DNA from: a virus
IMG/VR virus record: IMGVR_UViG_3300042988_001339
Span: 3,285 to 67,284 of that record
Strand: one strand, 5' to 3'
DNA: 64,000 nucleotides
Shown here: piece by piece, positions 6,733-64,000 of the stretch
Layout: each line of letters begins with the position of its first letter
How positions within the stretch are numbered: the first letter of the stretch is position 1
Notes under the pieces: model-generated
Database searches by the model: none
What the model was told of the DNA's origin: nothing
The model's input: the letters and a program-made list of their open reading frames with translations, nothing else
Program-made: the position numbers and the translations under genes

Positions 6733-7193
6733 GCGCCCCCGGGATCGTGGCGTTCCTCCGGGCCCGCCTCGACGAGGACGAGGCGGCGGCCAGGCTCGCA
6801 GGGGCCACTCCTGACGAGCGGTGGCGACGCCACGAGAACGCCGTCCTCGAAGACGTCCCCGATGGCCACCGGGGGGCATGGATCGCCCAAGCCTGTGAGG
6901 ATGAGGAAACCGCCGCGCACATCGCCAGCCATGATCCCGCGCGCGTCCTCGCGGACGTCTCGGCGGTCCGGGCGCTGATCGCCGTGGTCGCATCGTGGCG
7001 GCACAGGGCCGACTTGGATGCGTGGGTGTTCTGCGCCCGCGCGCCCGAGACCCGCGCGACGTTCCCCGACGACTGGGACGAGGGTGGCGATCGGTGTACG
7101 TGCGGCCGGGACCGGGACGTCCTGGCGGTCCTCGGTCCGTTCGCCGCTGTCCACGCTGCGCACCCCGACTACCAGCAGGCGTGGAAGCCGTGA
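6729..7193 (+). CDS. DUF6221-like protein (copy 2)
   Basis: IVAFLRARLDEDE...HIASHDPARVLADV...AAHPDYQQAWKP. Confidence 0.8.
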   Translation: MSAPGIVAFLRARLDEDEAAARLAGATPDERWRRHENAVLEDVPDGHRGAWIAQACEDEETAAHIASHDPARVLADVSAVRALIAVVASWRHRADLDAWVFCARAPETRATFPDDWDEGGDRCTCGRDRDVLAVLGPFAAVHAAHPDYQQAWKP

Positions 7194-32000: not shown

Positions 32001-32505
32001 CAGTCCCGGCGGCCCCCGCCATCGCGGACTCAAACGCACTCTCGGATGCGACGAAGTCCCAGCCGAGTTGGGTGAGCTGGCCCTTGCGGATCTCGATGCA
32101 CTTCCTGATGATCCCCACACCGTCAGCCAACTGCCGCAGGACGGTCCAGGGCATGACCCGGTCCCCGCCCCCCGGCAGGTTGTGCGACACCGCGTACTCG
32201 GAGCGGCGGGGCAGCGGGCGGCCGTCCGCGCCGAGGGGGTCGATCGCTGCGGGCCGCAGCGGGCGGCCCGGCCCGAACGGGACGAGGGGGTCCGTCCAGC
32301 CACCCGGGACGAGCGGCGCGGCCTGCCCGGCACCCCACCCGGGGGACTGCTGGAGCCCGGCCTGTGTCGCCTGCGGCACGAGGTCAGTGACCGTCGCCCC
32401 GCGCGGGGCCTGGATCATCTTGAGGAGTTCGGCGGCGATGGCCTGCGCCGACGGGCCCTGCGGCTGCACGGGCTGGGGGCGGGGAGAGCGGCGCTTCCGC
32501 GACAA
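29014..32505 (-). CDS. Portal protein with intein and C-terminal NUDIX domain
   Basis: DGS|TIKPL portal motif split by an intein; PYGYGPTEQ; TINEGR..GLP; NUDIX box. Confidence 0.9.
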   Translation of the reverse strand: MSRKRRSPRPQPVQPQGPSAQAIAAELLKMIQAPRGATVTDLVPQATQAGLQQSPGWGAGQAAPLVPGGWTDPLVPFGPGRPLRPAAIDPLGADGRPLPRRSEYAVSHNLPGGGDRVMPWTVLRQLADGVGIIRKCIEIRKGQLTQLGWDFVASESAFESAMAGAAGTAVEASRARAAMSGDRDAKADQRAAMPASRAAWERSFRRDNAEQITNLKRWWKHPDQIQGWTMEDWLGAAMEEALVLDALSIFPRATLGGDLHSLTILDGSCYSDDTEVLTRRGWVKFADTTTDDEFATRNQKTHAFEWQQATYFHKARHDGPMYHFTSRAIDLLVTPNHRMLVESLPRVLGGHASRGRGEVIIPAEALALACGDTPRIPVVASWDAPDLDEFVIPAAGKRSSDFRMSGDDFAAFMGMYLAEGHVDKRGSHGKYDSTVVISQESKSKGYQEFKDLLARILGRPAAESGRGFLVYSRTLAEYVARFGKSWEKSVPSEILNMSARQLEIFLHFYWLGDGWVGHGDPKARYITTTSPMIAGAVQEIAVKLGFSAGVHRRAGSLKRDRYDISLRRARSNKITSMTTVPYEGDVYCVSVPNEVLYVRRNGRPAWCGNTIKPLLDHTGSTPQEGPAYQQILHGFPRGEFTASNQADGEYTADSLIYRPRNRRTHTPYGYGPTEQAIQDADLYLKRRAWMNSEYDDGVAPELLINVNANMTPDQLRAYETVFNDMLSGNIAERHRAKMLPAGFVPTLLPSLESRYKPDYDLFLIRMIGNHFDITAQELGFPPSGGLGGAGFDEGDERRNERRATKPTAKWMAGIINAISAEYLGMPETLEFSFVFDDDEDDEAAESERVRTGRKTINEGRDEAGLPRFDVPEADMPLLYAGNTVIPLAGIADRANTVLTTAAAAQAALTAPAGNTPDDDPDTDQGDTEDDEPTDREQEPVKVPAPRTAKAAQPEDETGPAPVVAAGLAIQARSTGRVLMLQRALTDGDPASGTWELPGGCVDGVETPEETARREWAEETGMHVPPGDVTGGWQSGGYVGVVLQVPDEDAVNIRGDRWVTNPDDPDGDVTEALAWWAPADLRGNPAVRAELAASLDVVLQALGADDTAKAAESTAFRMFVRRVRKGDRPWRPFGFQAHASHIAEAANALAGDGDYAAAVACLDI
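30679..31701 (-). mobile_element. Intein (341 aa) with LAGLIDADG endonuclease in portal
   Basis: CYSDDTEVLTRRGW start, VTPNHRM, FMGMYLAEG, WLGDG, end VYCVSVP...WCGN/T. Confidence 0.92.
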
Positions 32506-32547: not shown

Positions 32548-35500
32548 TCAGCGTCCGGGGAGGATGAGGCCAGCGATGGTGACTGTCCCGTCGGGGGCGG
32601 TCGTGATGGGCCCGGGCACGTCCGGGGCGTCCGGGGTGTCCGGGGTGTCGCCGGGGTCGTTGGGGATCGGGATGGATCCCGGGACTCCGGGTGGCCCGTC
32701 GGGGCGGAGTTCCACCGGCAACGCCGCGGGCCCTGTGGGTGCCGCGTGCGGGAGTTCCTTCCCGCACCGGAAGCACGTGGCGCGGCCGGTCGTGTTCGGG
32801 GTCTTGCACTCCGGACACGGCGCACTGAGCTGGGTGAGGAACGCGAGAGCGGACGCGCCACCCGCCAACTCCGTCACCGCCCACACGAACGCATCGAGAC
32901 GGTCCGGGGACCACCCGGAGGTCGGGTTCCACGTGCACAACTGGTCCTCAAGCTCAGACCAGCGGCCGACATGCCGGACCATCTTCCGCTGCGTGAGGAC
33001 CGCGATCGGTTCCGCCCGGACCGCCTTCCCCCGCGACGCGCGGACGACGGTGACAGGCAGGTTCGGGTGCGCGGCCTTGATGGTCGCCTCGACCATCTCG
33101 CCACCGAAGTTGATTTCGGCGCAGATAGCGTCCGCGGTGTGCTTCTCGTACGCGGCGTACACGCGGTCCGCCCACTCGGTGGGTGACCACGAACCCGAGA
33201 GGTCTTCGAGGACGTAGAACCGGCCGTCGGACCCGAGCCCGACGACGACGATCCCGCACTCGCTCTTGCCGTTCGTGGATGACCCGGACGGGTCGACACC
33301 GACAACGACACGGACTAGGCGAACGTCCGGGGGGACACTGCCGACCCGCTGTGCATCGATGACGTCCTGGGACCACAAGGCGCCGGGGATGGCGTCCATG
33401 GCGTCCCAGTCGCCGTCGAGGAGCGCCCGGCGGAGGCGGGAGTCGGGCATCGCTCGTAGCTGCGCGACGTACCCGGGGTTGGACTTCATCAGCCCCGGGT
33501 TGTCCTCGATGGTCGCGGGGAGGAACGCCCGTTTTGGGTGCCAGCCGATGACCTTCCCGTCCTCCACGACGGGCGGTGACCACGGGACGCCCGCGTCCGG
33601 TGGCGCTTGGCCCTTGGCGAGGTCTTCGGGGCGGGGGGACACGAACCGGCGTTTCACCCACCGGAACCCGACGCCCTCAGGGTTCGACGCGGAGATGACG
33701 TGCGCCCGGTGCCCCCGCGCGGACCGGACCCGGCTGAGCATGAACGTGTACTGCGACTCCGTGAACTCGGTGAGCTCGTCGAACAGGAGCAGGTCGAACT
33801 CGGCCGACTTGTAGTTCTGCTCATCGCCCGGGCTGTTGTCGCTGCCCGCGTTCTGGAGGCTGATGAACCGGATCACGGAGGCGTTGGGGAACGTGAACGT
33901 GAAGTCGGTCTTGTTTTCGCGTGCGTGCCCGGCGAGCATCCCGGGGAGGTGCAGGCCGTGGGTCTGCTTCAGCATCGGCAGGGTGCGGCGGACGAGCGCG
34001 ATGTGCGCGCCGGGGTGCGCGACCGCGAAGTCACAGGCGTAGGACCGGAGGAAGAACGAGTTGTGGGTGACGATGTAGTCGTCGGTCACGTACAGGTGGT
34101 TCAGGTTGTCGACCGTGATGCACCGTGAGTTGTCGACCACGGTAGGGACGACGGACACGACGCGATGCCAGGGCTCGTGGTCGCCGCCGTTGAACCCCGC
34201 GACCGCCCGTGCCCGCTTCCGGGGCATGTGGAACAGGTCCACGGTGGCGCGGCCCTGGATGTAGAGCCGGTACGCGAGGCGGCCGGCGCGCTTCTCCCCC
34301 CCATGGGTGTACGTGGTGGTCTTGGTGTTCAGGGTCGCCCGGTAGCCGAGGGACCGGAGGATGGCCTGCATGTCCTTCGCGAGGCGCTCGGACACGGTGA
34401 CGAACTCGACGTGGCCGCGGTCGTCGATGTGCCCGTCGGTGTCCATGAGGCCCTGGACGAACGCGAGCCGGTCGGGGGTGGGTGCGCGCATGATGCGCCC
34501 GGGGATGAACTTCTCCCACGAGTGGAGCCCGTACAGGCCGTCCCGCTTGAGGAGCGTCGCCGCGGACTCGCCGGTCCGCTTCGGGTAGGCCGCGACGAGT
34601 TCGCCGCCCGCGTTGAGGGCGTCATCGAGTCGCTGTGCGGTGGCGGGTCGGGGCCAGACGGTGCCTCGTTCGATGGTTCCGATCGTCCCTTGCGGGGAGC
34701 CGATGAGTGCGCCTAGTTCACGTTGCCCAAGGTTGCGCGCCTTCCGCCACCTCTTCATGGTTGCCGTGAATTCGGCGAGGGCGTCCCGGTCGTCGCGGTC
34801 AGCGCCAGGGCGGGTGATGCTGTAGGTAGGGCAGTGCGCCCCGTTGTCGGTGCCCGTGACCTGCCGCAACTCCAAGCCGTGGGGTAGTTCGGCGCGGATC
34901 CGGTCGAAGATCTCCGGGTCTACCCCGCAGATCGACACGTTGACGGAGATGCTGCCGTCGCCGACGAGCGCGCCGAGCGTGTAGGGGCTGAACGTCGCCC
35001 ACTGCGTTCCGACCCCAGTCATGGTGACGGGGTTCGTGAGCGGCAACTGCACGTAGTGAGGGCGGAGGCCGCGGGCCTTCTCGTCGTCGGCTCGGGCGAC
35101 GAGCCGTGCGAGCTCGACGGTGTTGACGACCTTCGCGCGGGACTGGACCCGCAGGTTCCATTCATCCTCGGGGCGTAGGCCCTTGGGGATGGCTGGCGGG
35201 TCAATCTTCCGGCGCTTCCGTTGGCCCGCGATCGATACGGCCCAGAGGTGCTCGTCGTCGGCCTCGACGGTGGACCCGTCGGCGAGAGTGACCCGGTAGA
35301 ACTGCTTCGGGCCATTGTCGGTGACCTTGATGACGGTGGCGGTGGTCCCGTCGGGGTTGCAGACGGTGTCGCCGACCTTGATGTCACCGAACAGGGTCCA
35401 GCCCTTGGGGGTGAGGATCTTCGTTTCTTGGTCGGGCGTGTACCCGGGCGCGGTGCGGTCCGGGGTCCGGCCGCCTTTGCCGGGGCCGGCGCTTCCCCCG

Positions 35501-35634
35501 AACAGCAACTCGAAGACTTCGCCCGCGAGTTTCACGGCCTGCGCCTGCTTGGGGTGCGGGGTCCAGAACTTCACGGGCTTCGGGTTGAACACGTCCAGAG
35601 CGTGAGCGAAGACATTTGTTTGGGGGCTCTGCAC
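32548..35634 (-). CDS. terL: Terminase large subunit (intein-containing)
   Basis: Walker A GGSAGPGK|S, Walker B LLLFDE, ASNP, VGVDP, PDRLDA. Confidence 0.95.
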   Translation of the reverse strand: MQSPQTNVFAHALDVFNPKPVKFWTPHPKQAQAVKLAGEVFELLFGGSAGPGKGGRTPDRTAPGYTPDQETKILTPKGWTLFGDIKVGDTVCNPDGTTATVIKVTDNGPKQFYRVTLADGSTVEADDEHLWAVSIAGQRKRRKIDPPAIPKGLRPEDEWNLRVQSRAKVVNTVELARLVARADDEKARGLRPHYVQLPLTNPVTMTGVGTQWATFSPYTLGALVGDGSISVNVSICGVDPEIFDRIRAELPHGLELRQVTGTDNGAHCPTYSITRPGADRDDRDALAEFTATMKRWRKARNLGQRELGALIGSPQGTIGTIERGTVWPRPATAQRLDDALNAGGELVAAYPKRTGESAATLLKRDGLYGLHSWEKFIPGRIMRAPTPDRLAFVQGLMDTDGHIDDRGHVEFVTVSERLAKDMQAILRSLGYRATLNTKTTTYTHGGEKRAGRLAYRLYIQGRATVDLFHMPRKRARAVAGFNGGDHEPWHRVVSVVPTVVDNSRCITVDNLNHLYVTDDYIVTHNSFFLRSYACDFAVAHPGAHIALVRRTLPMLKQTHGLHLPGMLAGHARENKTDFTFTFPNASVIRFISLQNAGSDNSPGDEQNYKSAEFDLLLFDELTEFTESQYTFMLSRVRSARGHRAHVISASNPEGVGFRWVKRRFVSPRPEDLAKGQAPPDAGVPWSPPVVEDGKVIGWHPKRAFLPATIEDNPGLMKSNPGYVAQLRAMPDSRLRRALLDGDWDAMDAIPGALWSQDVIDAQRVGSVPPDVRLVRVVVGVDPSGSSTNGKSECGIVVVGLGSDGRFYVLEDLSGSWSPTEWADRVYAAYEKHTADAICAEINFGGEMVEATIKAAHPNLPVTVVRASRGKAVRAEPIAVLTQRKMVRHVGRWSELEDQLCTWNPTSGWSPDRLDAFVWAVTELAGGASALAFLTQLSAPCPECKTPNTTGRATCFRCGKELPHAAPTGPAALPVELRPDGPPGVPGSIPIPNDPGDTPDTPDAPDVPGPITTAPDGTVTIAGLILPGR
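34060..35475 (-). mobile_element. Class-3-like intein (472 aa) with LAGLIDADG and XRE-HTH insert
   Basis: Inserted in the P-loop; ILTPKGW, EHLW, RCITV, VTHN/S; LGALVGDG and QGLMDTDG. Confidence 0.9.
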
Positions 35635-36292: not shown

Positions 36293-37216
36293 TTATGACG
36301 CTGAGGCGAGCAGTGCGGCGACGGTGTTCGAGGCCTGGGCGTGGAGCTCGACACCAAGCCTGTCGTAGGACATGGTCGTGCGGCTGCTGGCGTGGTCCAT
36401 GCCGTCTTGGACGACGCGGAGGTCTACGCCCGCCTGGAGCGCGAGCGTCGCGAAGGACCGGCGGAGGGAGTGCGGGCTGACCTTTTTCGTGATCCCTGCG
36501 TCGCGGCAGAGACGCTGGAGCGCCCGGTCTGCCGACCGGCGGGTCATCTGGGTGCCGTCGCGGCGGGTGATGAGCCAGCCCGTGGCGCGCCCGGCGGTGA
36601 CCGCGTCCACGGCCTGCATCACGGGGATGGGGAGCACCTTGACGGACGGTTTATTGCCCTTCCCGACGGTGCGGAGGACCCGGTAGCCGAGTTCAGTGGT
36701 CGAGAGGTCCTCGATGCGGATGGCGCACGTGGCGGAGACCCGCATCCCGACGGTGCCCATCAGGGAGATGAGTGCCCAGTCCGACGGGGACGATGCCCGG
36801 GCGGCCCGCAGCAGCGACCCGAGTTCGAAGCGGTTGAGCCATGTCCTCCGGGACGGATCGTCGTGGATCTCCGGGAGGACCAGGTGGTGTGCGGGCGAGT
36901 GCTCGATGAAGCCGTCGACCACGGCGAGGTCGTAGTAGCCGCTGATGGTGCCCATCCTGCGGACGACGGACGCGGGGGCGTTCTTCCGGTGCTCGACGAG
37001 GTGCACGACGAACGCCTGGATGTGGCCCCGCTTCATCGTGAACGGGTGGAGGCCCCTGGACGCGCACCACTCGAAGAACAGGCGGAGGTCGAGTTGGTAG
37101 GCGGCGCGGGTGTTCGCGTTGAGGAACCGGCCGAGGAACGCCATCGCCGCGAGGTTCGCGGGGTCGTTGAGGGCGTCGTGGGTTTGGGCGGCGGGCAGGA
37201 GGGTAGCGTCGTACAT
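36293..37216 (-). CDS. XerC/D-like tyrosine recombinase 2
   Basis: NTRAAY..DL; GMRVS, GKG, HSLRR, HASSRTTMSYDR. Confidence 0.92.
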   Translation of the reverse strand: MYDATLLPAAQTHDALNDPANLAAMAFLGRFLNANTRAAYQLDLRLFFEWCASRGLHPFTMKRGHIQAFVVHLVEHRKNAPASVVRRMGTISGYYDLAVVDGFIEHSPAHHLVLPEIHDDPSRRTWLNRFELGSLLRAARASSPSDWALISLMGTVGMRVSATCAIRIEDLSTTELGYRVLRTVGKGNKPSVKVLPIPVMQAVDAVTAGRATGWLITRRDGTQMTRRSADRALQRLCRDAGITKKVSPHSLRRSFATLALQAGVDLRVVQDGMDHASSRTTMSYDRLGVELHAQASNTVAALLASAS

Positions 37217-54414: not shown

Positions 54415-55284
54415 CTCCTGTCGTCAGCGGCACGGTGCCGCGGAAACCCTTCGGGGCGCGCGACACGCGACGTGTCGCGCGGTCCCGCACAACCTCACGC
54501 CACAAGACGTCAGGGACGTCCAGGTCCTTGGGTCGCAGGCCACGCGGCGCGGGGGCCGGGAACAGGCCCGGCTTGTCATCGCTCACCGCTCCGGCACCCC
54601 ACACGTCCCGCCGGAGGTGGCCAGCGCCACGGACACGATGCTTTCCGCTGGCACGTAGGCGGAGATGCGCCCGAAGTCGGCGAATGCGGGATCGGCGGCC
54701 AGATCGACGTCCAGGGACATGGCCCCGATGCGGGTGATGCGCGCCCGGATGGTGATGTCGACGACGTCACCGGCCCCGACCCCGTAGGTGCGGGGGTCAA
54801 CGGCCCGGAGTGGCTTCACCGCTGACTCCAGGCGATCGCCTTGAGGCGGTCCGCGCCACCGAGGTCTGTGGTGATCCATCGGTGTGCCGTGACCAGCCCC
54901 GGGAAGCCGGAGGCGAGGCGCTCCAGATTCCACGCGTCCGCGGCGCGCATCGCCGCGATCAACTCGGAGAAGAACGGCGGCGGAAGTCGACCACCCGCGA
55001 CGCGTGAGTACCCGAACCGGTGCAGTACCCACGCGGCCTCATCGGGTGTCGGCTCGACCATCACTGCACTGTCCGTTGTGTCGCTCACTGGTTGTCTCCT
55101 GCGCGCTCGTTGGTGACTGTCTGTGGGCTCGCCGGGCACATGCAGGGCGGGGGCCCCGCGTGGGTGCACCCGCGGATGTCGTCGTGTTCCCCGGCCGTGT
55201 GCGACGGCGGGCAGAGGCAGCGGCGGCCCGTGGACGGGCCCGCACCGAGCGCCCGGCGGACCCGGTCGATGAGGACGGCGCGCT

Positions 55285-56327: not shown

Positions 56328-56705
56328 CTACCGGTCGTGATGCCCCGGCCCATGCTCACCAGACGCGCACAACACGCACGCCACAGGCGACACCGGGCGC
56401 AGCGGAACCCACTGCCCGCCCAGCCCCACATACGGCTGCGCAGCCCGCGGGTCCCCCGGATGCGCCGCAGCCCACACCGCCATCCGCTCCAGCGCGACCT
56501 TCACCAGGTGCCACGTCGTACTGCCGTCACCCGGCGGCGACACCCGCGCCTGCCCAGCGATCGCCACGAGCTGCCCCCGGCTACACCGGTCCAGGTCGGC
56601 CGCCGTGATGCCACGCTGCCAGCACCACGACGCGACCACCGCGACCTTCCGCCGCCGGTTCACCTCCGCCGCCGGCGTGTGCCGGAAGTCGACGCCTTCA
56701 GCCAC
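56328..56705 (-). CDS. Hypothetical protein
   Basis: Coupled ORF at the end of the cas-containing transcript. Confidence 0.55.
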   Translation of the reverse strand: MAEGVDFRHTPAAEVNRRRKVAVVASWCWQRGITAADLDRCSRGQLVAIAGQARVSPPGDGSTTWHLVKVALERMAVWAAAHPGDPRAAQPYVGLGGQWVPLRPVSPVACVLCASGEHGPGHHDR

Positions 56706-57381
56706 GACCCGTACCCACCGGGACCGTGCACAGGACGCTCACCGTCTGCCCCCAGCAGTACGCGCACGCGAACCCCCTGGCCGCCCCTTGTGCCGCACAC
56801 GCGCGACACGAGTACGACCACGCCACCGGCACGCACCCACACGACCGGGCCAGCAGGTCAGCGGTCACCGCGGGGTCCTCGCACAGGTCCTCGACGCCGG
56901 TCAGAGCGTGAGGCCAGATCGTCTCGCACACCGGGGCCACCGCGAGAGCAGGGGCGCCGGCGGGGGCCTCCGTCGCGGCGGTCACGTCCCCTCCATCTTC
57001 CTTCGGTGCCCAATGCAGACGAGCGGGTTCGGCCGCAGGGCACGCGGATCCCCGGCGTAAGTCACATAGGCCTGCCGGAGTCGCTTCGCGTGACGGCGAG
57101 GACACCAACCGATGCCGCAGCGACGCGTCACCCCGGACAGGGATACCCCGATGCCAGGACGACGACCGGACACCTGTCGGGCGGTCACGAACCGCGGTCC
57201 CCGCAGCCTCCATCCGAGCCAAACACCCCGCAACCTCCACCAGGCCAGCGCCCACACCGGCAGCAACAGCAGCCGCCACAGTGGACCGGCGACGGTCTGC
57301 CCGCGCAGGCAGCCACGCCCACACCCGGGCCTCCAAGTCATGCGCCGTAGCGTCGGCGGACACCGAAACCTCCTCGGACAC
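56698..57381 (-). CDS. wHTH-like N-terminus plus Cys-rich C-terminus (possibly 2-3 small genes)
   Basis: EVAGCLARMEAAG.AVR; internal RBS and GTG near 56985. Confidence 0.4.
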   Translation of the reverse strand: MSEEVSVSADATAHDLEARVWAWLPARADRRRSTVAAAVAAGVGAGLVEVAGCLARMEAAGTAVRDRPTGVRSSSWHRGIPVRGDASLRHRLVSSPSREATPAGLCDLRRGSACPAAEPARLHWAPKEDGGDVTAATEAPAGAPALAVAPVCETIWPHALTGVEDLCEDPAVTADLLARSCGCVPVAWSYSCRACAAQGAARGFACAYCWGQTVSVLCTVPVGTGRG

Positions 57382-58066
57382 TCAGCACCTCCGGGTAGTA
57401 GTGGTTCTCCCATTCCCACCGACCGTGATCAGCGCCCCGGTCGCCGCCGAGGCTGGTAACACGCAGCCGATCCCGAGGCAGGACCCCACCGAAAGACATC
57501 GCGTAAGCCGGATGCAGCGGCAGGTCATGAAGGGCCGCGTACAGCCAGATGTCTTCCGAACGCCAGTCGATGATCGGGCGGCAGGACCGTCCCGTTGACG
57601 TGCCGTGGACACCCCGGGACCGTGCCCGCGCGAACGACTCGTCGGCGCGGAGCCCGGTGATGCGCCGAGCGGACACGTTCCGCTCGATCCACCGGTAAGG
57701 ATGCGGGTCGTCCACGGGGATCTCCTGGTACGGGGCGGGCCACCGGTCCAGGTAGGCGGCGGCAACCGCCGCACAGTCAGGGTTCGCGAGCCTGTCCGTC
57801 CGGGTCGGCGCGTAGGTCACCCAGATGAGCGGGATCCCGAGACCGGCCGCGAGGTGCGCGACGGTCACGGAGTCCCGGCCCCAGGAGACCCCAATGTGGC
57901 AGTCGCCGGCCGCAGCGAACGTCTCAATCTCGGCTCGGGCGGTCACGGTGAGGCGGTCGAGCCGCCGCCGGGTTGCCCCGGCGGCGGCGATCGCCCGGTC
58001 GTACCGCCACATCCGCGCCCACTCGGCACGGTCGGCGTCCGACAGGCGCGGGCAGTCGACTAGCAC
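57338..58066 (-). CDS. cysH: Type IV-B-associated CysH / PAPS-reductase-like protein
   Basis: PP-loop VSWGRDS, ITGLRADES..R, RPIIDW...DIW.Y...DLPLHPAY. Confidence 0.88.
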   Translation of the reverse strand: MLVDCPRLSDADRAEWARMWRYDRAIAAAGATRRRLDRLTVTARAEIETFAAAGDCHIGVSWGRDSVTVAHLAAGLGIPLIWVTYAPTRTDRLANPDCAAVAAAYLDRWPAPYQEIPVDDPHPYRWIERNVSARRITGLRADESFARARSRGVHGTSTGRSCRPIIDWRSEDIWLYAALHDLPLHPAYAMSFGGVLPRDRLRVTSLGGDRGADHGRWEWENHYYPEVLSVRGGFGVRRRYGA

Positions 58067-58785
58067 GGCCTGCACCTGACACGCCGCAGCGGGTGCCAGT
58101 GCGGTGCCCGAGCTGACTCGACGACCGTCCCAGCCGGGTCAGGCAACGGACGGTCCATCCACCCATCCCGAGGCCCGGCGCAGGGTTCGACGCGCACGGA
58201 GTGGATGCGGCCCCACCCGTGGCGGGTCAGCCGCCCAACCCCCTTGAGTCGCAGCAACAACTCGATGAGAGGGTCCGGTCGGCCGAGGAGCCGCCACTGG
58301 ATGATGTCGGCCCACGCGGCGGGGTGCGGGACGTTCCGCGCCTTGTGCGGACCAAGAGCGGCATGGAACCGGTTGTCCTGAGCGAACCGGGCATGTTCCT
58401 TGACCGGTGGAACTTTCCGGGTGTGTGCCGTGGTCCACGCGACCGGTCGCCAGTCGCCGCGGGACACCGCCCACCCCCACACCTCGCCCGCCTCGTTGAG
58501 GAGCGAAGGGTGTGTCCCCTCGGGGGCCGGTCTTGTCCACGTCGCGACCGGTAGAGCGAAGTCCACGGGAGGGTTGCCGGGCGACAGGGGCGGCAGGACA
58601 GCGTGCGCGTCACGGGCCGCCAGGTACGCGGCCCACGACAGCGGCCCGTCGCCGACCAGGAGATCGGCTGTCGACACGACAGGCTCCGCGAGACGAGCCG
58701 TGACGAGGAGCGGCACGAACTCGGGGTCCCCGGTCTGGTCGACGACCGTGGCGCCGTCGACCATGAGGGGCGGCCGAGGCGTCAC
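58060..58785 (-). CDS. csf3: Csf3 (Cas5-like RAMP)
   Basis: PLLVTARL...DGPLSWAA, DFALP, WGWAVS, G-loop VGRLTRHGWGRI, RAPHWHP. Confidence 0.85.
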   Translation of the reverse strand: MTPRPPLMVDGATVVDQTGDPEFVPLLVTARLAEPVVSTADLLVGDGPLSWAAYLAARDAHAVLPPLSPGNPPVDFALPVATWTRPAPEGTHPSLLNEAGEVWGWAVSRGDWRPVAWTTAHTRKVPPVKEHARFAQDNRFHAALGPHKARNVPHPAAWADIIQWRLLGRPDPLIELLLRLKGVGRLTRHGWGRIHSVRVEPCAGPRDGWMDRPLPDPAGTVVESARAPHWHPLRRVRCRPC

Positions 58786-59621
58786 CGCAGGCCCGTGAGG
58801 AGATCCCGGATCGCCGCGGCATGCCCGACGGTGTGCTCACGGTGCCGGGCGGCGGCTGCCCGCAGGTCAGCGTCGGACGCGCCGATCAGGACGGCATCAC
58901 ACGCCCCGTACCCCTGGGCGGTCTTCGCGCCGAGCGTCCACCCACTGTCCGTGACCGCGACGAGTGCCGCGGCGAGAGCGTCGTCCTCGGCCGGGGTCGC
59001 GGCCTCGGTGGACAGGCCGAGGGTCCACCGGGACCCCGCCAGGACCACCTGGAAATCGTAGATCATCTGAGTGGTTTTCGTTGGGGACAACATGACGTCC
59101 TCAACGATCCGGTCGACAGCAGACCCGTCGACATCGTGACGGGTACCGAACTCCTCCGCGAGCCAGTCAGCGGCCGGGACCGCGGGGACGCCCGGGTCAG
59201 CCATCCGCCACGCGTTCTCGGCGCACCACAGGTGGACGTGGGTCGCGCGGAGCGCACCCGTCACGATGTCCGGGCCGTGGGAGTACCCAAGGAGCGGGAG
59301 CATCGGGAGCAGCGCGTGCCGATCCCGCATCGACACCAGGTCGGTCTGGGCGCCGGCCTGGGTGAGGGCACCCCCGGACCAGAGCAGGTCGACACACGCT
59401 TTCGACAGGGCGCCGTCAGCGATGCCTGCGTCTGCGACGAGCAGCCACGCGAGGGCGGCACGGATCTTGTGGCGGATGCTGTTCCCCGACACGAAAGGGA
59501 CCTTAGCGGGGGTCCCGTCGGGGAGAACGATGTCCTGGAGGCGCATGAGGGCCGTGTTCCCGGACGTGCCCGCGCCGTGGTGGATGGGCGCGGTCGCGGT
59601 GAGCTCAATGCTGACGTGCAT
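58782..59621 (-). CDS. csf2: Csf2 (Cas7-like RAMP)
   Basis: APIHHGAGTSGNT, VPFVSGNSIRH, LWSGGAL, EFGTRHD, QMIYD, LGAKTAQGYG. Confidence 0.92.
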   Translation of the reverse strand: MHVSIELTATAPIHHGAGTSGNTALMRLQDIVLPDGTPAKVPFVSGNSIRHKIRAALAWLLVADAGIADGALSKACVDLLWSGGALTQAGAQTDLVSMRDRHALLPMLPLLGYSHGPDIVTGALRATHVHLWCAENAWRMADPGVPAVPAADWLAEEFGTRHDVDGSAVDRIVEDVMLSPTKTTQMIYDFQVVLAGSRWTLGLSTEAATPAEDDALAAALVAVTDSGWTLGAKTAQGYGACDAVLIGASDADLRAAAARHREHTVGHAAAIRDLLTGLR

Positions 59622-59644
59622 GATGATCAGGAGTCCTCTCGGGG

Positions 59645-60097
59645 TCAGAATATGGGGGCGTCGACAGCAGCCGACGCCTTCGGGGCGGCCGTCGCGGGCT
59701 TCGCGGCTGCACGGGCGGTCTTGCGGTCGTCGCGGCGGAGCCGGACCATCGCCGCGACGAACACGGCGTCGCGGGCCGCGAGGCGCCGCCACCTGGCGAA
59801 CAGGTCGGGGTCCCGCAACGCTTGCGCGAGCCGGTCGATCTGCTCCGCGGTCTCGATCTGGAGGGTGTCGATCTGGAGTTTCCGGGCCACCCTGGTCGTG
59901 ACCTCCCGGACGTTCGACCCGGCGTAGCAGCCGGTCTCCAGCGCCGTCTTCGCGCGGTCCCACCAGCGGTTCACGCCGATCACGGCGACGTCCGCGGAGC
60001 GGAGCATCGCGTCGAGGAAGTCGACGGCGTAGTCGATGAGCTGATCGTCGGTGACGACGACCGTCCCGGCGTCAGGCGAATCGGTCGGCAAGGTCAT
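59645..60097 (-). CDS. cas11: Cas11-like small subunit of type IV-B
   Basis: 150 aa all-helical (WWDRAKTALET...ARKLQI) between csf1 and csf2. Confidence 0.75.
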   Translation of the reverse strand: MTLPTDSPDAGTVVVTDDQLIDYAVDFLDAMLRSADVAVIGVNRWWDRAKTALETGCYAGSNVREVTTRVARKLQIDTLQIETAEQIDRLAQALRDPDLFARWRRLAARDAVFVAAMVRLRRDDRKTARAAAKPATAAPKASAAVDAPIF

Positions 60098-60821
60098 TGA
60101 GGGTCTCCTTCGTGGTGAGGTACAGGGCCAGGTCGAGGATCTGGCTTCCTGCGTGGGGGCGGATCGTTGACGCGTGGCGGCGCCACGCGTCGAGTCCTGC
60201 GCCGGTCAGCGCGGGGATGGAGGGGTTCGCTTCGCGGATCCGGTCGGGATGGTGCCCGGTGCGACGCAGGTCCGCAGCGGCCCCGAGGAGCCCCGCGAAC
60301 GTGGCGGGGCTGGACGCGATGGTGGCCGCCTCGAACCGGGCCAGCCACGGGCCGGCGCCGCGGTTCACGGGCGTGTAGGGCAGCAGGTGCTTCTGCCCGG
60401 ACTGTGCGACCGCCACGGCCCACGAGTCGCCTGCCGGGGGGCCTGTGAGGATGTCGACAACGGCCGACATGTCGCGGCGGTTGCACAGGTGCAGGTGCAG
60501 CCCGGACGCGGGAGCAGTGTCCGGGGACGGTGGGAGCGGGGTGTCGGCGGTCGTGACGATCGACCACATCCGCAGCGTCGCCGGGGGTTTCCCTGCGAGA
60601 GCCCACGAGCAGGCTGGGCAGACACGGGTGCTGTCGGGGCGGGTCGCGGTGAGGAGGTCGAAGTTCGCGCCGAGCGCATCTTTCGTCGATGACGTTACGT
60701 CGGCGGACGTCCCGCACACGAGGCAGGCCGCGCCTGGTGTCGAGGTGGTGACACGGCCGGGGTCGGGTCGCCCGGCTGCGTCCCATGCGAGATGGGTGGC
60801 GGACGTGGGCGCGAGGGTCAC
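60072..60821 (-). CDS. csf1: Csf1 (Cas8-like large subunit, Zn finger)
   Basis: CLVCG...NFD...VCPACSW and SGQKHLLPY motifs. Confidence 0.82.
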   Translation of the reverse strand: MTLAPTSATHLAWDAAGRPDPGRVTTSTPGAACLVCGTSADVTSSTKDALGANFDLLTATRPDSTRVCPACSWALAGKPPATLRMWSIVTTADTPLPPSPDTAPASGLHLHLCNRRDMSAVVDILTGPPAGDSWAVAVAQSGQKHLLPYTPVNRGAGPWLARFEAATIASSPATFAGLLGAAADLRRTGHHPDRIREANPSIPALTGAGLDAWRRHASTIRPHAGSQILDLALYLTTKETLNDLADRFA

Positions 60822-61429
60822 TGGTCTGCTCCGAGGACGTGGAGGCCTGCGCCGTAGGCGCGGGCGTGGCCGTGACCTTCGGTGAGGCGGTGATGAAGTG
60901 CGTCGGGGTCGATGACGTGTCCGGTCACGGTGACGAGGACCCGGGCGGTGGTGACGATTTGCCCGTCGGGTCTGCGGCCTGTCGACGCTGGGAGGTCCCG
61001 GACTTGGATCGGGGCGTCTGGAGCGAGGACCGGGACGATCCGGACTGACACCCATTCGGCGCGTTCGGAGTCGGGGACGGGCACCCGGTACTGACGGGTC
61101 ACTCGGCGGGACCCGTCGGGGAGGGTCTCGCGGTCGCGTCGCGTCCGGTACGGGTTGAGGATCGCGGCAAGCCGAACCCGTTCCCCGACCTGGGTGGCTC
61201 GGATCGGCTGGTGGGCCAGGGCCTTCACCATGCCCGGGGGGATGAGGTCCAGTGTCGGGCTGTCCCCCGTGACGACGAGGAGGGTGTGCGGTGCGGGCAT
61301 GCCCCAGGTGACGGGGGCTTTCCCGTCGCCGAGAGCGAGGGCCATCGCGACGCGGCGTGCTTGGTGCGCGTCGGTGAGCCACTCGGCGCCTCGGTCGGAC
61401 AGGGTGGCTGCGGCGAGATGGGCGCTCAC
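60818..61429 (-). CDS. cas6e: Cas6e / Cse3-like RAMP endoribonuclease
   Basis: GERVRL...NP, GHVIDPDAL...L.EGHGHARAYGAGL C-terminal G-loop. Confidence 0.82.
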   Translation of the reverse strand: MSAHLAAATLSDRGAEWLTDAHQARRVAMALALGDGKAPVTWGMPAPHTLLVVTGDSPTLDLIPPGMVKALAHQPIRATQVGERVRLAAILNPYRTRRDRETLPDGSRRVTRQYRVPVPDSERAEWVSVRIVPVLAPDAPIQVRDLPASTGRRPDGQIVTTARVLVTVTGHVIDPDALHHRLTEGHGHARAYGAGLHVLGADQ

Positions 61430-61911
61430 GGCTTCTCTGCCTTCCGGATCCGCGCGTCAAGTTCGACGCGGTACGACTCCCCGTTGTCGTCGTTGGTGAT
61501 CGTGAACGAGCCCGGTTCGGTCTCCGTGTCCGTCACCCACCACTCGCCGCCGTCGAGGACCAGGCAGTCCCCTTCGGCTTCTTCGACGAGCGCCTCCAGG
61601 AGGTCGGCGGCGTCGAACCGTTCTGCGGCGTCGTTGACGACCGGATGGCACCGGAGCGTGTCGTCCTCCTCCGCGGGGACCCTCGGGACGCCCAGGACGG
61701 CGGCGGCAATCGGCAGGAGACGGCGCTGAACGGCAGGCGGCGCGTTCTCCCCCGCGGCCCGCAGGTGCGCGGAGAGGGCGGTGTCGATGGCGACCCGGCG
61801 GGCCATGCGCTCCGACGCAGGGAGTTCCTTCTCCAGCCATGTGCGGCGGAGGTCGGCGGTGTCGCGCTCCAGCCGCTCGGCGGCGGCGATGAGGGTCTCG
61901 GCGGGGGTCAT
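61426..61911 (-). CDS. Hypothetical protein
   Basis: 4-bp overlaps; coupled to cas6e. Confidence 0.6.
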   Translation of the reverse strand: MTPAETLIAAAERLERDTADLRRTWLEKELPASERMARRVAIDTALSAHLRAAGENAPPAVQRRLLPIAAAVLGVPRVPAEEDDTLRCHPVVNDAAERFDAADLLEALVEEAEGDCLVLDGGEWWVTDTETEPGSFTITNDDNGESYRVELDARIRKAEKP

Positions 61912-62210
61912 GCTGAGCCCTCCCGGTCGGTGGTCGTGATGTCGGCCAGGCGGTCGGTGAGCTGGTCCGCCACGGACTTCTCCACAAACTCGTGGTCGGC
62001 CATCTCACCAAACGCGTGATCGTTGACGTGACCGTCTTCGCGGCGCCGTCCGCACGCGGCGCACTCACTGCGGAGCCAGTTCCGGGTGTTGATCGCGATG
62101 GCGGCGCGGAGGGAGTCCCCATCCGGGCCCTGCGGGATGACCAAGACGGGCATCTGGTCGGGGTCGCCGATGGCCTCGGGGTTTGCGATGTACGGCTGGT
62201 CGGCGGTCAC
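61908..62210 (-). CDS. Hypothetical protein (CxxC..H)
   Basis: 4-bp overlaps. Confidence 0.55.
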   Translation of the reverse strand: MTADQPYIANPEAIGDPDQMPVLVIPQGPDGDSLRAAIAINTRNWLRSECAACGRRREDGHVNDHAFGEMADHEFVEKSVADQLTDRLADITTTDREGSA

Positions 62211-62518
62211 GCGGGCACCGCCAGGTCGTCGCGGACCTCGACCACGACACCCTCCACGACACCCGGGAGCGACACCCCGAGGTCCGCGGCAGTCGCGTCG
62301 TACAGGGGCGCGTCCGCACCCCACCCGTCGGTGAAAAACCTGCGGTGCAACGGGTGCGTGCCCGGGTCGAACGGCACCCGCGGGACCGGCCTGGACGTGA
62401 TCCCGAGACGGTCAGCGACCACCGAGAGGTCAGCGCCCGCGTAGTCCACCCGGGGCGCGGTCAGGGTGAGGATCGTCGTCGGCGGCTCGGTCGGCCGCCG
62501 GCGGGGAGTGCGGGACAT
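62207..62518 (-). CDS. Hypothetical protein
   Basis: ATG after purine-rich RBS; 4-bp overlap. Confidence 0.55.
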   Translation of the reverse strand: MSRTPRRRPTEPPTTILTLTAPRVDYAGADLSVVADRLGITSRPVPRVPFDPGTHPLHRRFFTDGWGADAPLYDATAADLGVSLPGVVEGVVVEVRDDLAVPA

Positions 62519-63092: not shown

Positions 63093-64000
63093 TCACGCCC
63101 GCCGGGCGGCGGTCGCGTAAAGCTCGGGGGTGAGGCCGTAGCCCCACGCGGCGGCTGCGATGGGGTCCTCGATCTCGGCGGGCACGGTGAGGCCGAAGCG
63201 GTGCCGGGACCCGTCCCGCTCGACAGTCCCGTTCGTGCACAGCAGCACCCGGACATCGGCGTCCCCGTAGATCCGCTCGGGGACGTCGTAGAGCGCGAGC
63301 TCCTGCCCCGGATTGCCGGGGTCGGCGACAGTCGGGCCGACCTGCGCCAGACCCGCCTCGCGGACGAACCGGTCCCAGCCCGCCCGCTCAATCGCGCACC
63401 GCCGGACCTCCGCGTTGCGCTCCTGCAGGATCCGGGTCGTGTCCCACCCGGCGCCCTCGATGAGGTCCGCCGGGACCCGGGTGCCGTGCCACGCGTAGAC
63501 CGCGGTCCCGTCGGCCCAGGCCACGGCTGGCCCGGTCTCGCAGTGCAGCCGGTGAGATCCCCATCCCGTCGGGGCGAACTGCTCTACATTCAGGACGGTC
63601 GGCCTCTCCGCGACCATCGCGAAGTCGCCCCACGCCCACCAGTAGCCGGCCACGTTCGCGTCCGCGTAGGCCTGCGCGCGGTCCCAGAGGTCGTCGTCGA
63701 GCTCCAGGCCGCCGTGGTCGCGGAACCAGAGCCGCCACGCCATCCACCCGGACCAGTGCTGGCCGCCGAAGCGGCGGTACCAGCCTGCGCGCAGCACATC
63801 GGCGATCGCCTTCCGGAACACCGCGCCGCGCACCGCGCCGTCCACCGCGCCGTCCACCGCGTCGCGCACCGCGCCGCCCACCGCGCCGCGCACCGCGCCG
63901 CCCACCGCGTCGCGCACCGCGTCGCGCACCGCGCCGCGCACCGCGCCGTCCACCGCGTCGCCCACCGCGCCGACCACCGCGCCGTCCACCGCGCCGCGCA
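63093..64000 (-). CDS. DUF6745-like protein (5' end outside window)
   Basis: ERP, RLHCETGPAVAWADG...WHG, NAEVRRCAIE..GW, NGTVE.DG. Confidence 0.8.
   Translation of the reverse strand, partial: RGAVDGAVVGAVGDAVDGAVRGAVRDAVRDAVGGAVRGAVGGAVRDAVDGAVDGAVRGAVFRKAIADVLRAGWYRRFGGQHWSGWMAWRLWFRDHGGLELDDDLWDRAQAYADANVAGYWWAWGDFAMVAERPTVLNVEQFAPTGWGSHRLHCETGPAVAWADGTAVYAWHGTRVPADLIEGAGWDTTRILQERNAEVRRCAIERAGWDRFVREAGLAQVGPTVADPGNPGQELALYDVPERIYGDADVRVLLCTNGTVERDGSRHRFGLTVPAEIEDPIAAAAWGYGLTPELYATAARRA
63820..64000. repeat. 12-bp coding tandem repeat, at least 15 units
   Basis: ACCGCG(C/T)CGNNC units encoding (D/R/G/V)(G/D)AV. Confidence 0.95.

What the first reader, a model, noticed from the sequence alone, without database searches (positions are those of the whole stretch)
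57338..61429. Phage-encoded, array-less type IV-B Cas effector operon with a type I-E-like Cas6
Seen: six co-oriented, mostly overlapping genes cas6e-csf1-cas11-csf2-csf3-cysH embedded among small phage early genes. I found no CRISPR array, cas1/cas2, dinG or cas3 anywhere in the 64 kb. Known: type IV-B loci carry csf1/cas11/csf2/csf3/cysH, usually lack both Cas6 and arrays, and their RNA source and function are unresolved; Cas6e recognises type I-E repeat hairpins, and I-E is common in actinobacteria. Inference: this module may capture host I-E pre-crRNA or crRNA and load it into a nuclease-less complex (anti-CRISPR sponge or guide hijack), or use phage solitary-repeat guides for RNA-guided regulation or modification through CysH.
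Basis: partly seen in the sequence, partly recalled or inferred. Interest (0 to 1): 0.92.

Follow-up and report, generated by a model that had tools for sequence, protein, structure and literature searches.

The report
Phage type IV-B CRISPR module with Cas6e
A temperate actinobacterial phage carries a guide-less, nuclease-less type IV-B CRISPR complex plus its own Cas6e-like RNA-binding subunit, and its relatives sit as prophages in hosts whose own type I-E CRISPR arrays hold spacers against them, which points to the module living off or blocking host CRISPR RNA.

Summary
The window is part of a 67,284-bp temperate siphophage. At 57338-61429 (minus strand) it has cas6e-like, csf1, cas11, csf2, csf3 and cysH-like genes. 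All six are supported by profiles or folds. The whole genome has no CRISPR array, I-E-like repeat, cas1, cas2 or cas3.

This gene order is not a one-off. A Cas6e-like gene lies directly upstream of csf1 in 32 of 36 related loci; the other 4 loci end at csf1. These proteins form an old lineage separate from host I-E Cas6e.

Of the 15 host genomes, 12 carry a canonical I-E Cas6e. The base rate is 45 of 121 in Corynebacterium and 26 of 301 in the class. In 8 of 10 hosts examined, the I-E array holds perfect spacers against the host's own module-bearing prophage region. There are up to 32-35 such spacers, most with an xAA PAM. None was found in 4 control genomes.

The best reading is that the module binds host I-E crRNA and protects the phage from I-E interference. 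This is inferred, not shown. The window's own Cas6e-like protein has Arg in place of the catalytic His, and its host is unknown.

The parts
60818..61429 (-). cas6e-like gene (203 aa from the GTG start; the source calls a 175-aa form). It is a divergent Cas6e with Arg25 at the catalytic-His column, His22 at the Tyr23 column, and the G-rich loop GHGHARAYGAGL kept.
   Evidence: PF08798 scores 41.5 bits against a cut-off of 25. TIGR01907 scores 21.8 bits, below its cut-off of 45.2. PADLOC Cas6 gives E 2.6e-12. The family profile A2 matches T. thermophilus Cse3 2Y8W at E 6.8e-21 over the full length.
60072..60824 (-). csf1, the type IV large subunit with a CxxC...CxxC motif. The GTG start at 60824 is inferred.
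   Evidence: PADLOC Csf1_0_IV gives E 2.6e-27 over residues 6-240. The AF2 model has pLDDT 93.1. Foldseek matches 7xg1_A and 8rc3_G of type IV-A complexes with probability 1.00. The gene shares 28% identity (E 2e-6) with the gene in the same position in Skermania phage SPI1.
59645..60097 (-). cas11, the small subunit (150 aa, all-helical).
   Evidence: PADLOC typeIV_Cas11 gives E 9.9e-13. The AF2 model has pLDDT 89.4. VIA-align gives 7jhy_h (Type IV-B complex) Z 11.1, rmsd 3.3 over 115 residues, with the next row at Z 5.0. Foldseek alone found nothing.
58782..59621 (-). csf2, the type IV Cas7 backbone subunit (279 aa).
   Evidence: PADLOC typeIV_Cas7 gives E 7.3e-77. PDB 7JHY Csf2 matches at E 1.7e-7. 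There are 152 homologues at E <= 0.001.
58060..58785 (-). csf3, the type IV Cas5 (241 aa).
   Evidence: PADLOC Csf3_0_IV gives E 9.6e-22. TIGR03116 gives E 1.5e-9, below its cut-off.
57338..58075 (-). cysH-like PP-loop (PAPS-reductase family) gene (245 aa).
   Evidence: PF01507 scores 36.8 bits against a cut-off of 22.5. There is a weak BrxP match at E 3e-4. The gene is syntenic in the relatives.
56698..57381 (-). Accessory gene that overlaps the end of cysH. Its N-terminal ~70 residues recur inside or beside the module in relatives. I read it as a winged-helix regulator, but no family was matched.
   Evidence: It shares 46% identity (E 3e-16) with the ORF between csf3 and cysH of L010. tblastn finds it in 10 of 36 related loci. 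Pfam gives no hit.

Best explanation
This is a phage-borne type IV-B effector module that has its own Cas6e-like subunit but no guides. Most likely the Cas6e-like protein binds the repeat hairpin of the host's type I-E CRISPR transcripts. It then caps a Csf2/Cas11 filament, with Csf3 and Csf1, assembled on that RNA. Host guides therefore end up in a nuclease-free complex. The phage or prophage gains protection from I-E interference, either because guides are drained away from Cascade or because its own protospacers are occupied. What is shown: the gene set; the absence of an array; the fixed Cas6e-csf1 linkage in the lineage; the bias towards I-E hosts; and the tolerated, PAM-proper self-targeting spacers in relatives' hosts. 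What is inferred: which RNA is bound; that the complex, rather than another prophage gene, causes the tolerance; and any role of the CysH-like enzyme, whose chemistry is unknown. In this window the Cas6e-like protein has Arg at the catalytic His position, so it may bind without cutting.
For: All six genes are identified. The 67-kb genome has no array, I-E-like repeat or cas1/2/3. A Cas6e-like ORF lies directly upstream of csf1 in 32 of 36 related loci, and the 4 misses end at csf1. The catalytic His is kept in 28 of 28 distinct relatives and in 42 of 45 family representatives, so an RNA substrate is expected. None of the 36 related loci (about 450 kb) holds an array. A canonical I-E Cas6e is present in 12 of 15 host genomes, against 45 of 121 in a Corynebacterium sample and 26 of 301 in a class sample. 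All 10 host regions fetched hold I-E arrays. One host, G001, has a complete uninterrupted cas3-to-cas2 operon. Array spacers match the host's own module-bearing prophage region. G001 has 32 matches, all within 42 kb and nowhere else in 2.3 Mb. G004 has 35, all within 50 kb. G006 has 12, G005 has 6, G009 has 8 and G011 has 1. G002 and G003 have one perfect match each. The upstream xAA motif is present in 25 of 30, 28 of 34 and 6 of 8 protospacers. Four control Corynebacterium genomes with I-E arrays of 36 to more than 183 repeats but no module show no self-match. The predicted Csf2:Cas6e-like complex scores 0.73 against a best control of 0.01. That mark was reached by 58 of 80 solved complexes and 2 of 110 mismatched pairs; the runs agree in at least 82% of contacts, and the partner's pLDDT is at least 84. 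Because like complexes are solved, this pass may only reflect likeness. Small HTH genes and DNA methyltransferases are embedded in or next to the module in relatives, as in anti-defence gene clusters (the comparison with acr/aca operons is recalled).
Against: No RNA binding or inhibition was measured, and every functional clue is correlative and comes from relatives. The window phage's host is unknown, and none of the 445 spacers tested matches it. Its Cas6e-like protein lacks the catalytic His. Tolerance of self-targeting could come from another prophage gene or from a silent host system. In G006 and G011 spacers also match other regions of the genome. Three of 15 hosts lack a canonical Cas6e; two of them are MAGs. 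The hosts are related to each other (5 Corynebacterium), the controls number only 4, and the loci were chosen through Csf2. The Cas6-less JS623 IV-B complex bound heterogeneous RNA rather than co-expressed I-E crRNA (passages of PMC8175902). IV-B as a whole correlates negatively with I-E, and the authors thought a multi-protein anti-CRISPR unlikely (passages of PMC7038947).
Confidence: 0.45

Rival explanations
1. Guide co-option for the phage's own ends. The module loads host I-E crRNAs, or crRNAs of co-resident elements, and uses them to bind and silence or mark competing phages and plasmids. That would be superinfection exclusion or gene regulation, with the CysH-like enzyme or the neighbouring methyltransferase as the output, and not inhibition of host immunity.
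For: The anatomy and the I-E host bias are the same as for the best explanation. Nuclease-free type IV-A complexes act by repression (passages of PMC12669027). A cysH-like gene lies in or beside the module in nearly all relatives, and a DNA methyltransferase lies within about 1 kb of csf3 or cysH in 20 of 36 loci.
Against: This reading does not by itself explain why dozens of PAM-proper spacers against the resident prophage are tolerated. No target or modification is known. The window has no methyltransferase.
Confidence: 0.2
2. The module has a function unrelated to CRISPR RNA. As in the solved JS623 complex, the Csf filament assembles on non-CRISPR RNA, and the Cas6e-like subunit caps it or recognises a phage or host hairpin that is not a CRISPR repeat. 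The CysH-like enzyme and methyltransferases act in nucleic-acid modification or anti-restriction. The I-E association and self-targeting come from other prophage genes or from sampling.
For: The JS623 complex bound heterogeneous RNA (passages of PMC8175902 and PMC7937560). The CysH-like protein weakly resembles BrxP. Methyltransferases are embedded in the module in relatives. The window's Cas6e-like protein lacks the catalytic His.
Against: JS623 has no Cas6. Here a Cas6e-family subunit with an intact active site is fixed across the lineage. No conserved phage hairpin or repeat was found. The I-E bias and the self-targeting are strong in the genomes examined.
Confidence: 0.25
3. The module is a decaying remnant with no current function.
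For: There is a His-to-Arg change in the window's Cas6e-like protein. In one relative, L017, the Cas6e-like gene is split over two frames.
Against: All six frames are open and tightly coupled. Synteny is kept at 30-60% protein identity across 36 loci from at least eight genera. The Csf1 and Cas11 models are confident.
Confidence: 0.05

Closest known systems
Type IV-B CRISPR-Cas (csf1-cas11-csf2-csf3 plus cysH-like; the Mycobacterium sp. JS623 plasmid complex, PDB 7JHY)
   Same: It has the same five genes in the same order, no array, no adaptation genes, no helicase or nuclease, and a mobile-element location. Csf2 and Cas11 match the 7JHY chains.
   Different: It carries a Cas6e-family gene fused into the operon upstream of csf1. 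It lies on phages and prophages, not plasmids. Its hosts mostly have I-E systems, whereas IV-B overall correlates negatively with I-E (passages of PMC7038947). Csf2 shares only about 29% identity with plasmid IV-B Csf2.
Type IV-A3 CRISPR-Cas (plasmid systems with a Cas6e-like protein and I-E-like repeats that lean on host I-E adaptation)
   Same: It is also a type IV effector paired with a Cas6 of the Cas6e family and with a co-resident I-E system (passages of PMC7038947). The Csf1 fold matches type IV-A Csf1-sized chains.
   Different: It has no DinG, no array of its own, and no Cas8-like replacement. It does have Cas11 and a cysH-like gene. Its Cas6e-like proteins form a separate and much more divergent group than host I-E Cas6e. 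I did not compare them with IV-A3 Cas6 sequences.
Type I-E Cas6e (CasE/Cse3)
   Same: The family profile aligns over the full length with T. thermophilus Cse3 (E 6.8e-21) and E. coli CasE (E 3e-17). The G-rich loop is kept, and so is the catalytic His in most members.
   Different: It scores below the TIGR01907 cut-off (21.8 against 45.2 bits), has Arg at the catalytic His column in this window, and is not linked to Cascade genes.
Prophage anti-CRISPR loci revealed by self-targeting spacers
   Same: Resident prophages are matched by many PAM-proper spacers of an apparently intact host system, and small HTH genes sit in the operon. That self-targeting marks anti-CRISPR carriage is recalled knowledge.
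   Different: Known anti-CRISPRs are mostly single small proteins, whereas this would be a six-gene ribonucleoprotein. No inhibition has been measured.
Virus-borne IV-B systems (Skermania phage SPI1; Bathyarchaeia 'Fuxiviridae')
   Same: These are IV-B gene sets in virus genomes (passages of PMC10541130).
   Different: SPI1 has no Cas6e-like gene. Per the paper's passages, the Fuxivirus locus has a mini-array, and no Cas6 is mentioned in the passages I saw.

Membership tests
Type IV-B CRISPR-Cas | Csf2 (type IV Cas7) | tested here: met
   PADLOC typeIV_Cas7 gives E 7.3e-77. 7JHY Csf2 matches at E 1.7e-7. TIGR03115 reaches only E 1.8e-5, below its cut-off.
Type IV-B CRISPR-Cas | Csf3 (Cas5) and Csf1 (large subunit) | tested here: met
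   Csf3_0_IV gives E 9.6e-22 and Csf1_0_IV gives E 2.6e-27. The Csf1 model matches type IV-A complex chains 7xg1_A and 8rc3_G.
Type IV-B CRISPR-Cas | Cas11 small subunit | tested here: met
   typeIV_Cas11 gives E 9.9e-13. VIA-align gives Z 11.1 to 7jhy_h, with the next row at 5.0.
Type IV-B CRISPR-Cas | Adjacent cysH-like gene | tested here: met
   PF01507 scores 36.8 bits against a cut-off of 22.5, and the gene overlaps csf3 by 16 nt.
Type IV-B CRISPR-Cas | No DinG or RecD helicase, no Cas10-HD, no cas1/cas2, no CRISPR array | tested here: met
   There is no array. tblastn with host Cas1, Cas2 and Cas3 finds nothing better than E 0.07. Ten large ORFs scanned with PHROGs and ten with Pfam show no helicase or nuclease of these kinds. 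Small ORFs were not all scanned.
Type IV-B CRISPR-Cas | No Cas6 (as usually described) | tested here: not met
   A Cas6e-like gene heads the operon. Passages of PMC7038947 note 12 exceptions among IV-B loci. I therefore file this as a variant of IV-B.
Cas6e (type I-E CasE/Cse3) | Family profile and fold | tested here: met
   PF08798 scores above its cut-off. The A2 profile matches 2Y8W at E 6.8e-21. The TIGR01907 equivalog cut-off is not reached.
Cas6e (type I-E CasE/Cse3) | Catalytic His (His26 of T. thermophilus Cse3; the numbering is recalled) | tested here: not met
   The window has Arg25 at that column. His is found in 42 of 45 representatives and in 28 of 28 distinct locus-derived relatives.
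Cas6e (type I-E CasE/Cse3) | Binds and cuts I-E repeat hairpins | not testable with these tools
   This needs RNA binding and cleavage assays.
Anti-CRISPR (functional class) | Inhibits CRISPR interference | not testable with these tools
   Support is indirect only: tolerated self-targeting in the hosts of relatives and none in 4 controls.

The most novel reading that the evidence does not exclude
The Cas6e-bearing IV-B lineage is a multi-subunit, RNA-loaded anti-CRISPR. It uses a captured Cas6e to seize the host's own I-E guides, including those raised against the phage, and packs them into nuclease-free Csf filaments that drain Cascade of guides or sit on the phage's protospacers. A prophage could then live for long periods in a cell whose array is one-third to one-half directed against it. 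This would give type IV-B its first function and would be a new class of counter-defence.
Probability: 0.3. Interest if true: 0.92.

Novelty: new variant of a known kind. Interest (0 to 1): 0.77.

Why it matters
Type IV-B is the one CRISPR-Cas subtype with no known RNA source or function. A lineage that always carries a Cas6e-family subunit, never an array, and sits in I-E hosts names a candidate RNA: host I-E crRNA. Its hosts include cultured strains whose arrays are heavily aimed at the resident prophage. The records behind L026 and L032 are titled Corynebacterium ulceribovis DSM 45146 and C. striatum ATCC 6940. That turns the old 'guide scavenger or sponge' idea into direct pull-down, deletion and interference tests. 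My five literature searches found no paper that describes this lineage or links it to I-E self-targeting. The closest statement is that 12 IV-B loci have a Cas6 (PMC7038947), listed in a supplement I could not open.

Tried and rejected
I tested the idea that the phage carries its own guides and rejected it. TRF, the repeat finder, Rfam at gathering and at E <= 5, and my own spaced-repeat scan found only coding tandem repeats. These include a 12-nt repeat at 63819-63997 inside a DUF6745 gene. The only Rfam CRISPR hit, CRISPR-DR31 at 58473-58509 with E 3.6, lies inside csf3 and is at chance level.

Solitary I-E repeats were also rejected. No host repeat occurs with 7 or fewer mismatches in its own prophage locus. 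The generic hairpin pattern occurs twice in the genome against 0.82 expected. Covariance model R1 scores at most 14.1 bits in the window, among 76 hits at E <= 10. Its best hit in relatives is 20.5 bits inside a cas11 gene, and the hits are not conserved in position.

Sequence profiles of Csf1 and Cas11 found nothing in the PDB, and Foldseek found nothing for Cas11. Only VIA-align and PADLOC identified Cas11. The single-protein search for the Cas6e-like protein found nothing in viral contigs. It found nothing in 50,697 phage records by tblastn, and the operon's DNA had no blastn match there. The three genes upstream of the operon (61426-62518) and the gene at 56328-56705 have no counterpart in the relatives, so I left them out of the module.

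I first counted G083 as a further module host because of a 68-bit PF08798 hit. When I fetched the region it proved to be a second I-E-like system with its own 35-repeat array and no csf genes, so I dropped it from all counts. In G008, a fragmented assembly, I found no perfect spacer on the module's contig. In G007 I found none in the 14.9-kb locus, and that genome was not searched as a whole. They may include members of this lineage.

Full report
WHAT IS THERE. The window is bases 3285-67284 of a single 67,284-bp contig that the tools treat as a virus record. Its G+C content is about 72%. It encodes a large terminase, a portal, a tape-measure protein, minor tail proteins, a CHAP lysin and two integrase-family proteins, so it is a temperate siphophage of a high-G+C actinobacterium. 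On the minus strand, at exactly the coordinates given, lie six tightly coupled genes:
- cas6e-like, 60818-61429
- csf1, 60072-60824
- cas11, 59645-60097
- csf2, 58782-59621
- csf3, 58060-58785
- cysH-like, 57338-58075

GENE IDENTITIES. The general libraries gave only weak names. PF08798 and PF01507 scored above their cut-offs, while TIGR03115, TIGR03116 and TIGR01907 scored below theirs, and csf1 and cas11 had no hit.
- The PADLOC cas profiles match all five effector genes over nearly their full length. Cas6/Cas6e gives E 2.6e-12, Csf1_0_IV 2.6e-27, typeIV_Cas11 9.9e-13, typeIV_Cas7 7.3e-77 and Csf3_0_IV 9.6e-22.
- Csf2 matches the solved IV-B Csf2 of 7JHY at E 1.7e-7.
- The Csf1 model is confident (pLDDT 93.1, pTM 0.89). 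Its only significant Foldseek matches are 240-residue chains of two type IV-A effector complexes, 7xg1_A and 8rc3_G (E 1.6e-5 and 3.2e-5, probability 1.00, TM 0.47-0.57).
- The Cas11 model has pLDDT 89.4. It had no Foldseek match. An all-against-all structural search put the Cas11-sized chain of the IV-B complex first: 7jhy_h, Z 11.1, rmsd 3.3 over 115 residues, with the next row at Z 5.0.
- The cysH-like protein matches the PAPS-reductase domain and, weakly, BrxP.

NO GUIDES OF ITS OWN. I found no CRISPR array with Tandem Repeats Finder, the repeat finder or Rfam at the gathering threshold. An Rfam search at E <= 5 and my own spaced-repeat scan of all 67,284 bases also found none. The only repeats are coding tandem repeats. 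tblastn with a host's Cas1, Cas2 and Cas3 finds nothing better than E 0.07. Twenty large ORFs scanned with PHROGs or Pfam show no DinG-like or Cas3-like helicase or nuclease.

NOT A ONE-OFF. Csf2 has 152 homologues at E <= 0.001, at 40-86% identity. A profile of 27 of them retrieved 21 loci from IMG/VR viral contigs and 15 from species-representative genomes. The genomes belong to Corynebacterium, Nocardia, Phytoactinopolyspora, Brevibacterium, Frankia, Nocardiopsis, Scrofimicrobium, Cutibacterium and three MAGs. All 36 loci keep csf1, csf2 and csf3, and cysH wherever the contig reaches that far.

An HMM built from 45 members of the Cas6e-like family (87 representatives at E <= 0.001 in 1.84 billion proteins) finds a Cas6e-like ORF immediately upstream of csf1 in 32 of the 36 loci. 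The four misses (L011, L023, L028, L029) are contigs that end at csf1. In L017 the gene is split over two frames. Three viral loci are the same DNA as three genome loci, and 28 Cas6e-like proteins are distinct.

Classic IV-B loci have no such gene. This holds for Skermania phage SPI1, which was the only hit among 50,697 phage records, and for three plasmid loci. None of the 36 related loci holds an array.

THE Cas6e-LIKE PROTEIN. The family profile aligns end to end with T. thermophilus Cse3 (2Y8W, E 6.8e-21) and E. coli CasE (E 3e-17). Forty-three of 45 members match TIGR01907, with best E 2.1e-12.
- The column aligned with the catalytic His of Cse3 holds His in 42 of 45 representatives and in 28 of 28 distinct locus-derived relatives.
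- In this window, its 71%-identical relative P0002 and one other protein, that column holds Arg.
- The window has His three residues earlier, at the column of Cse3's Tyr.
- The G-rich loop is kept.

The module-linked proteins score 110-208 bits against their own HMM, apart from the two fragments of the split L017 gene at 68-71 bits. The canonical Cas6e proteins of their hosts score 57-79 bits. On a tree the ten host proteins form one clade with 100/100 support, apart from the module-linked ones. The window's protein sits among the module-linked ones on a long branch, so its exact place is unsure. The Cas6e is therefore an old, fast-evolving part of the module and not a recent capture from the host.

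A structure prediction of Csf2 with the Cas6e-like protein passed its controls. The score was 0.73 against a best control of 0.01. That mark was reached by 58 of 80 solved complexes and 2 of 110 mismatched pairs. The runs agreed in at least 82% of contacts, and the partner's pLDDT was at least 84. Residues 166-180 of Csf2 contact the Cas6e-like sheet. Cas6-Cas7 complexes are solved, so this may show likeness only.

HOSTS HAVE TYPE I-E. In the 15 genomes that hold the module, PF08798 finds a canonical Cas6e (150 bits or more) in 12. The exceptions are G010 and two MAGs, G013 and G015. The base rate was 45 of 121 genomes in a sample of the genus of G004 (at 190 bits or more). It was 26 of 301 in a class-level sample with TIGR01907. 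These samples are not corrected for relatedness or completeness. All ten host regions I fetched hold I-E arrays of 28-29-nt CCCCGC...GCGGGG repeats beside cas6e. In G001 the cas3-cse1-cse2-cas7-cas5-cas6e-cas1-cas2 operon is uninterrupted, and every gene matches its I-E family. By contrast, passages of PMC7038947 report that IV-B as a whole correlates negatively with I-E.

THE HOST ARRAYS AIM AT THE RESIDENT PROPHAGE. I cut 445 spacers from the ten arrays and compared them with all the loci. The only matches were between an array and the module-bearing locus of the same genome. I then searched whole genomes with the arrays.
- G001: 32 matches, 18 at 100% identity. All lie within C1:1,065,535-1,107,948 around the module and nowhere else in 2.3 Mb.
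- G004: 35 matches, 13 at 100%, all within C83:111,718-161,836.
- G006: 12 matches around the module, 8 at the start of the same contig and 3 elsewhere.
- G005: 6 matches lying 18-27 kb beyond the fetched locus on the same contig.
- G009: 8 matches flanking the module.
- G011: 1 perfect match 3.4 kb outside the locus, plus 9 perfect matches on another contig.
- G008: only an 89% match on the module's contig.
- G002 and G003: one perfect match each in the locus.
- G007: no match in the locus, and the genome was not searched as a whole.

So 8 of 10 hosts have at least one perfect spacer against the region that holds the module. For G005 and G011, that the match lies in the same prophage is inferred. 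Some protospacers lie inside the cas6e-csf3 genes themselves. The two bases just upstream of the protospacer are AA in 25 of 30 (G001), 28 of 34 (G004) and 6 of 8 (G009) cases, as expected of real I-E acquisitions.

Four control genomes of the same genus have I-E arrays of 157, 100, at least 183 and 36 repeats and only one PF08798 match each. None showed a spacer-length match outside its arrays. A genome I had taken for a fifth Corynebacterium carrier, G083, proved to have a second I-E-like system and no module. I removed it from the counts.

NO REPEAT IN THE PHAGES. Host repeats do not occur with 7 or fewer mismatches in the corresponding prophage loci. The generic hairpin pattern occurs twice in the window's genome against 0.82 expected. 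A covariance model of ten host repeats gives only noise-level hits in the window. The best is 14.1 bits on the antisense strand at 54638-54672, among 76 hits at E <= 10. In relatives its hits are not conserved in position.

ACCESSORY GENES. In relatives the module is interrupted or followed by small regulators and DNA methyltransferases.
- A zinc-ribbon plus LuxR/GerE gene lies between cas6e and csf1 in 3 loci (L009, L033, L037). tblastn also finds it upstream of csf1 in L029, whose contig ends there.
- An XRE HTH gene lies between csf3 and cysH in 4 loci.
- An N6_N4 or D12 methyltransferase lies within about 1 kb of csf3 or cysH in 20 of 36 loci.
- A small domain is shared with the window's gene at 56698-57381 in 10 of 36 loci (46% identity to L010, E 3e-16).
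The window itself has no methyltransferase by this search. HTH genes inside counter-defence operons, and clustering of anti-defence genes, are recalled patterns and were not tested here.

READING. The lineage always has a Cas6e-family subunit, usually with an intact active site, and never an array. It lives in I-E hosts. Its prophages persist in cells whose I-E arrays are heavily directed at them, with proper PAMs. The simplest account is that the Cas6e-like subunit recognises host I-E repeat RNA and nucleates a nuclease-free Csf complex on host guides, which protects the phage. I put this at 0.45.

It remains possible that the guides are used against competitors (0.2). The complex may instead bind non-CRISPR RNA, as the Cas6-less JS623 complex did, with another prophage gene causing the tolerance (0.25). 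Least likely, the module may be decaying (0.05).

Several points count against over-reading. Everything functional is correlative and comes from relatives. The hosts are related to each other and were found through Csf2. There are only four controls. In two hosts, spacers also match other regions. This window's Cas6e-like protein lacks the catalytic His, and its host is unknown.

KNOWN OR NEW. IV-B, its cysH link, its presence on actinobacterial plasmids and sometimes prophages, and the 'scavenger or sponge' ideas are all in print (passages of PMC7038947 and PMC8175902). IV-B in viruses is also in print (passages of PMC10541130), and SPI1 carries an unannotated copy. PMC7038947 notes 12 IV-B loci with a Cas6 in a supplement I could not open.

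The 2025 classification update does not describe such a variant in the passages I saw. Five full-text searches found no paper on a Cas6e-bearing, prophage-borne IV-B lineage or on its link to I-E hosts and self-targeting. I therefore rate it a new variant of a known kind. It also offers cultured strains in which the open question of IV-B function can be tested directly.

Noticed in passing
L026, L032 and their genomes G001 and G004 (C1:1,065,535-1,107,948; C83:111,718-161,836): About a third (32 of 99) and nearly half (34-35 of 75) of the spacers in two intact-looking Corynebacterium I-E arrays match one resident prophage and nothing else in the genome. Most have an xAA PAM. This looks like primed acquisition against a tolerated prophage.
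   Followed up: yes
L005-L040, between csf3 and cysH or just after cysH: DNA methyltransferases (N6_N4 or D12/Dam class) lie within about 1 kb of csf3 or cysH in 20 of 36 related loci. The repeated pairing of cysH with a methyltransferase hints that the CysH-like enzyme acts in DNA modification. The window has no methyltransferase.
   Followed up: partly
L009, L033, L037 (between cas6e and csf1); L036, L014 (Cas6e ORF extended by about 150 aa): A zinc-ribbon plus LuxR/GerE HTH gene is inserted between cas6e and csf1. In two loci the Cas6e-like frame runs on into a Cys-rich extension.
   Followed up: partly
window 63093-63998 (minus strand), at the end of the contig: A DUF6745 protein begins with about 15 copies of a 12-nt (4-residue, Gly/Ala/Val/Arg/Asp-rich) tandem repeat that runs to within a few bases of the contig end. 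The assembly may have broken here.
   Followed up: no
window 29014-32505 and 32548-35634: The portal ORF also matches NUDIX hydrolase families. The large-terminase ORF of 1028 aa carries extra stretches that match primase/helicase-loader and HTH families.
   Followed up: no
window 7181-8170 (+) and 36293-37216 (-): There are two tyrosine-recombinase (integrase family) genes in one phage genome.
   Followed up: no
L064 (G083:C1:2,130,001-2,150,000): A Corynebacterium genome has a second, divergent I-E-like system (a Cas6e at 68 bits to PF08798, a Cas3-like gene, and a 35-repeat array with a related repeat) besides its canonical I-E locus.
   Followed up: partly
G011:C13:9,783-21,683 and G006:C43:214-14,845: The I-E arrays of two module-bearing hosts also hold many perfect spacers against a second region of their own genome. 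What those regions are was not examined.
   Followed up: no
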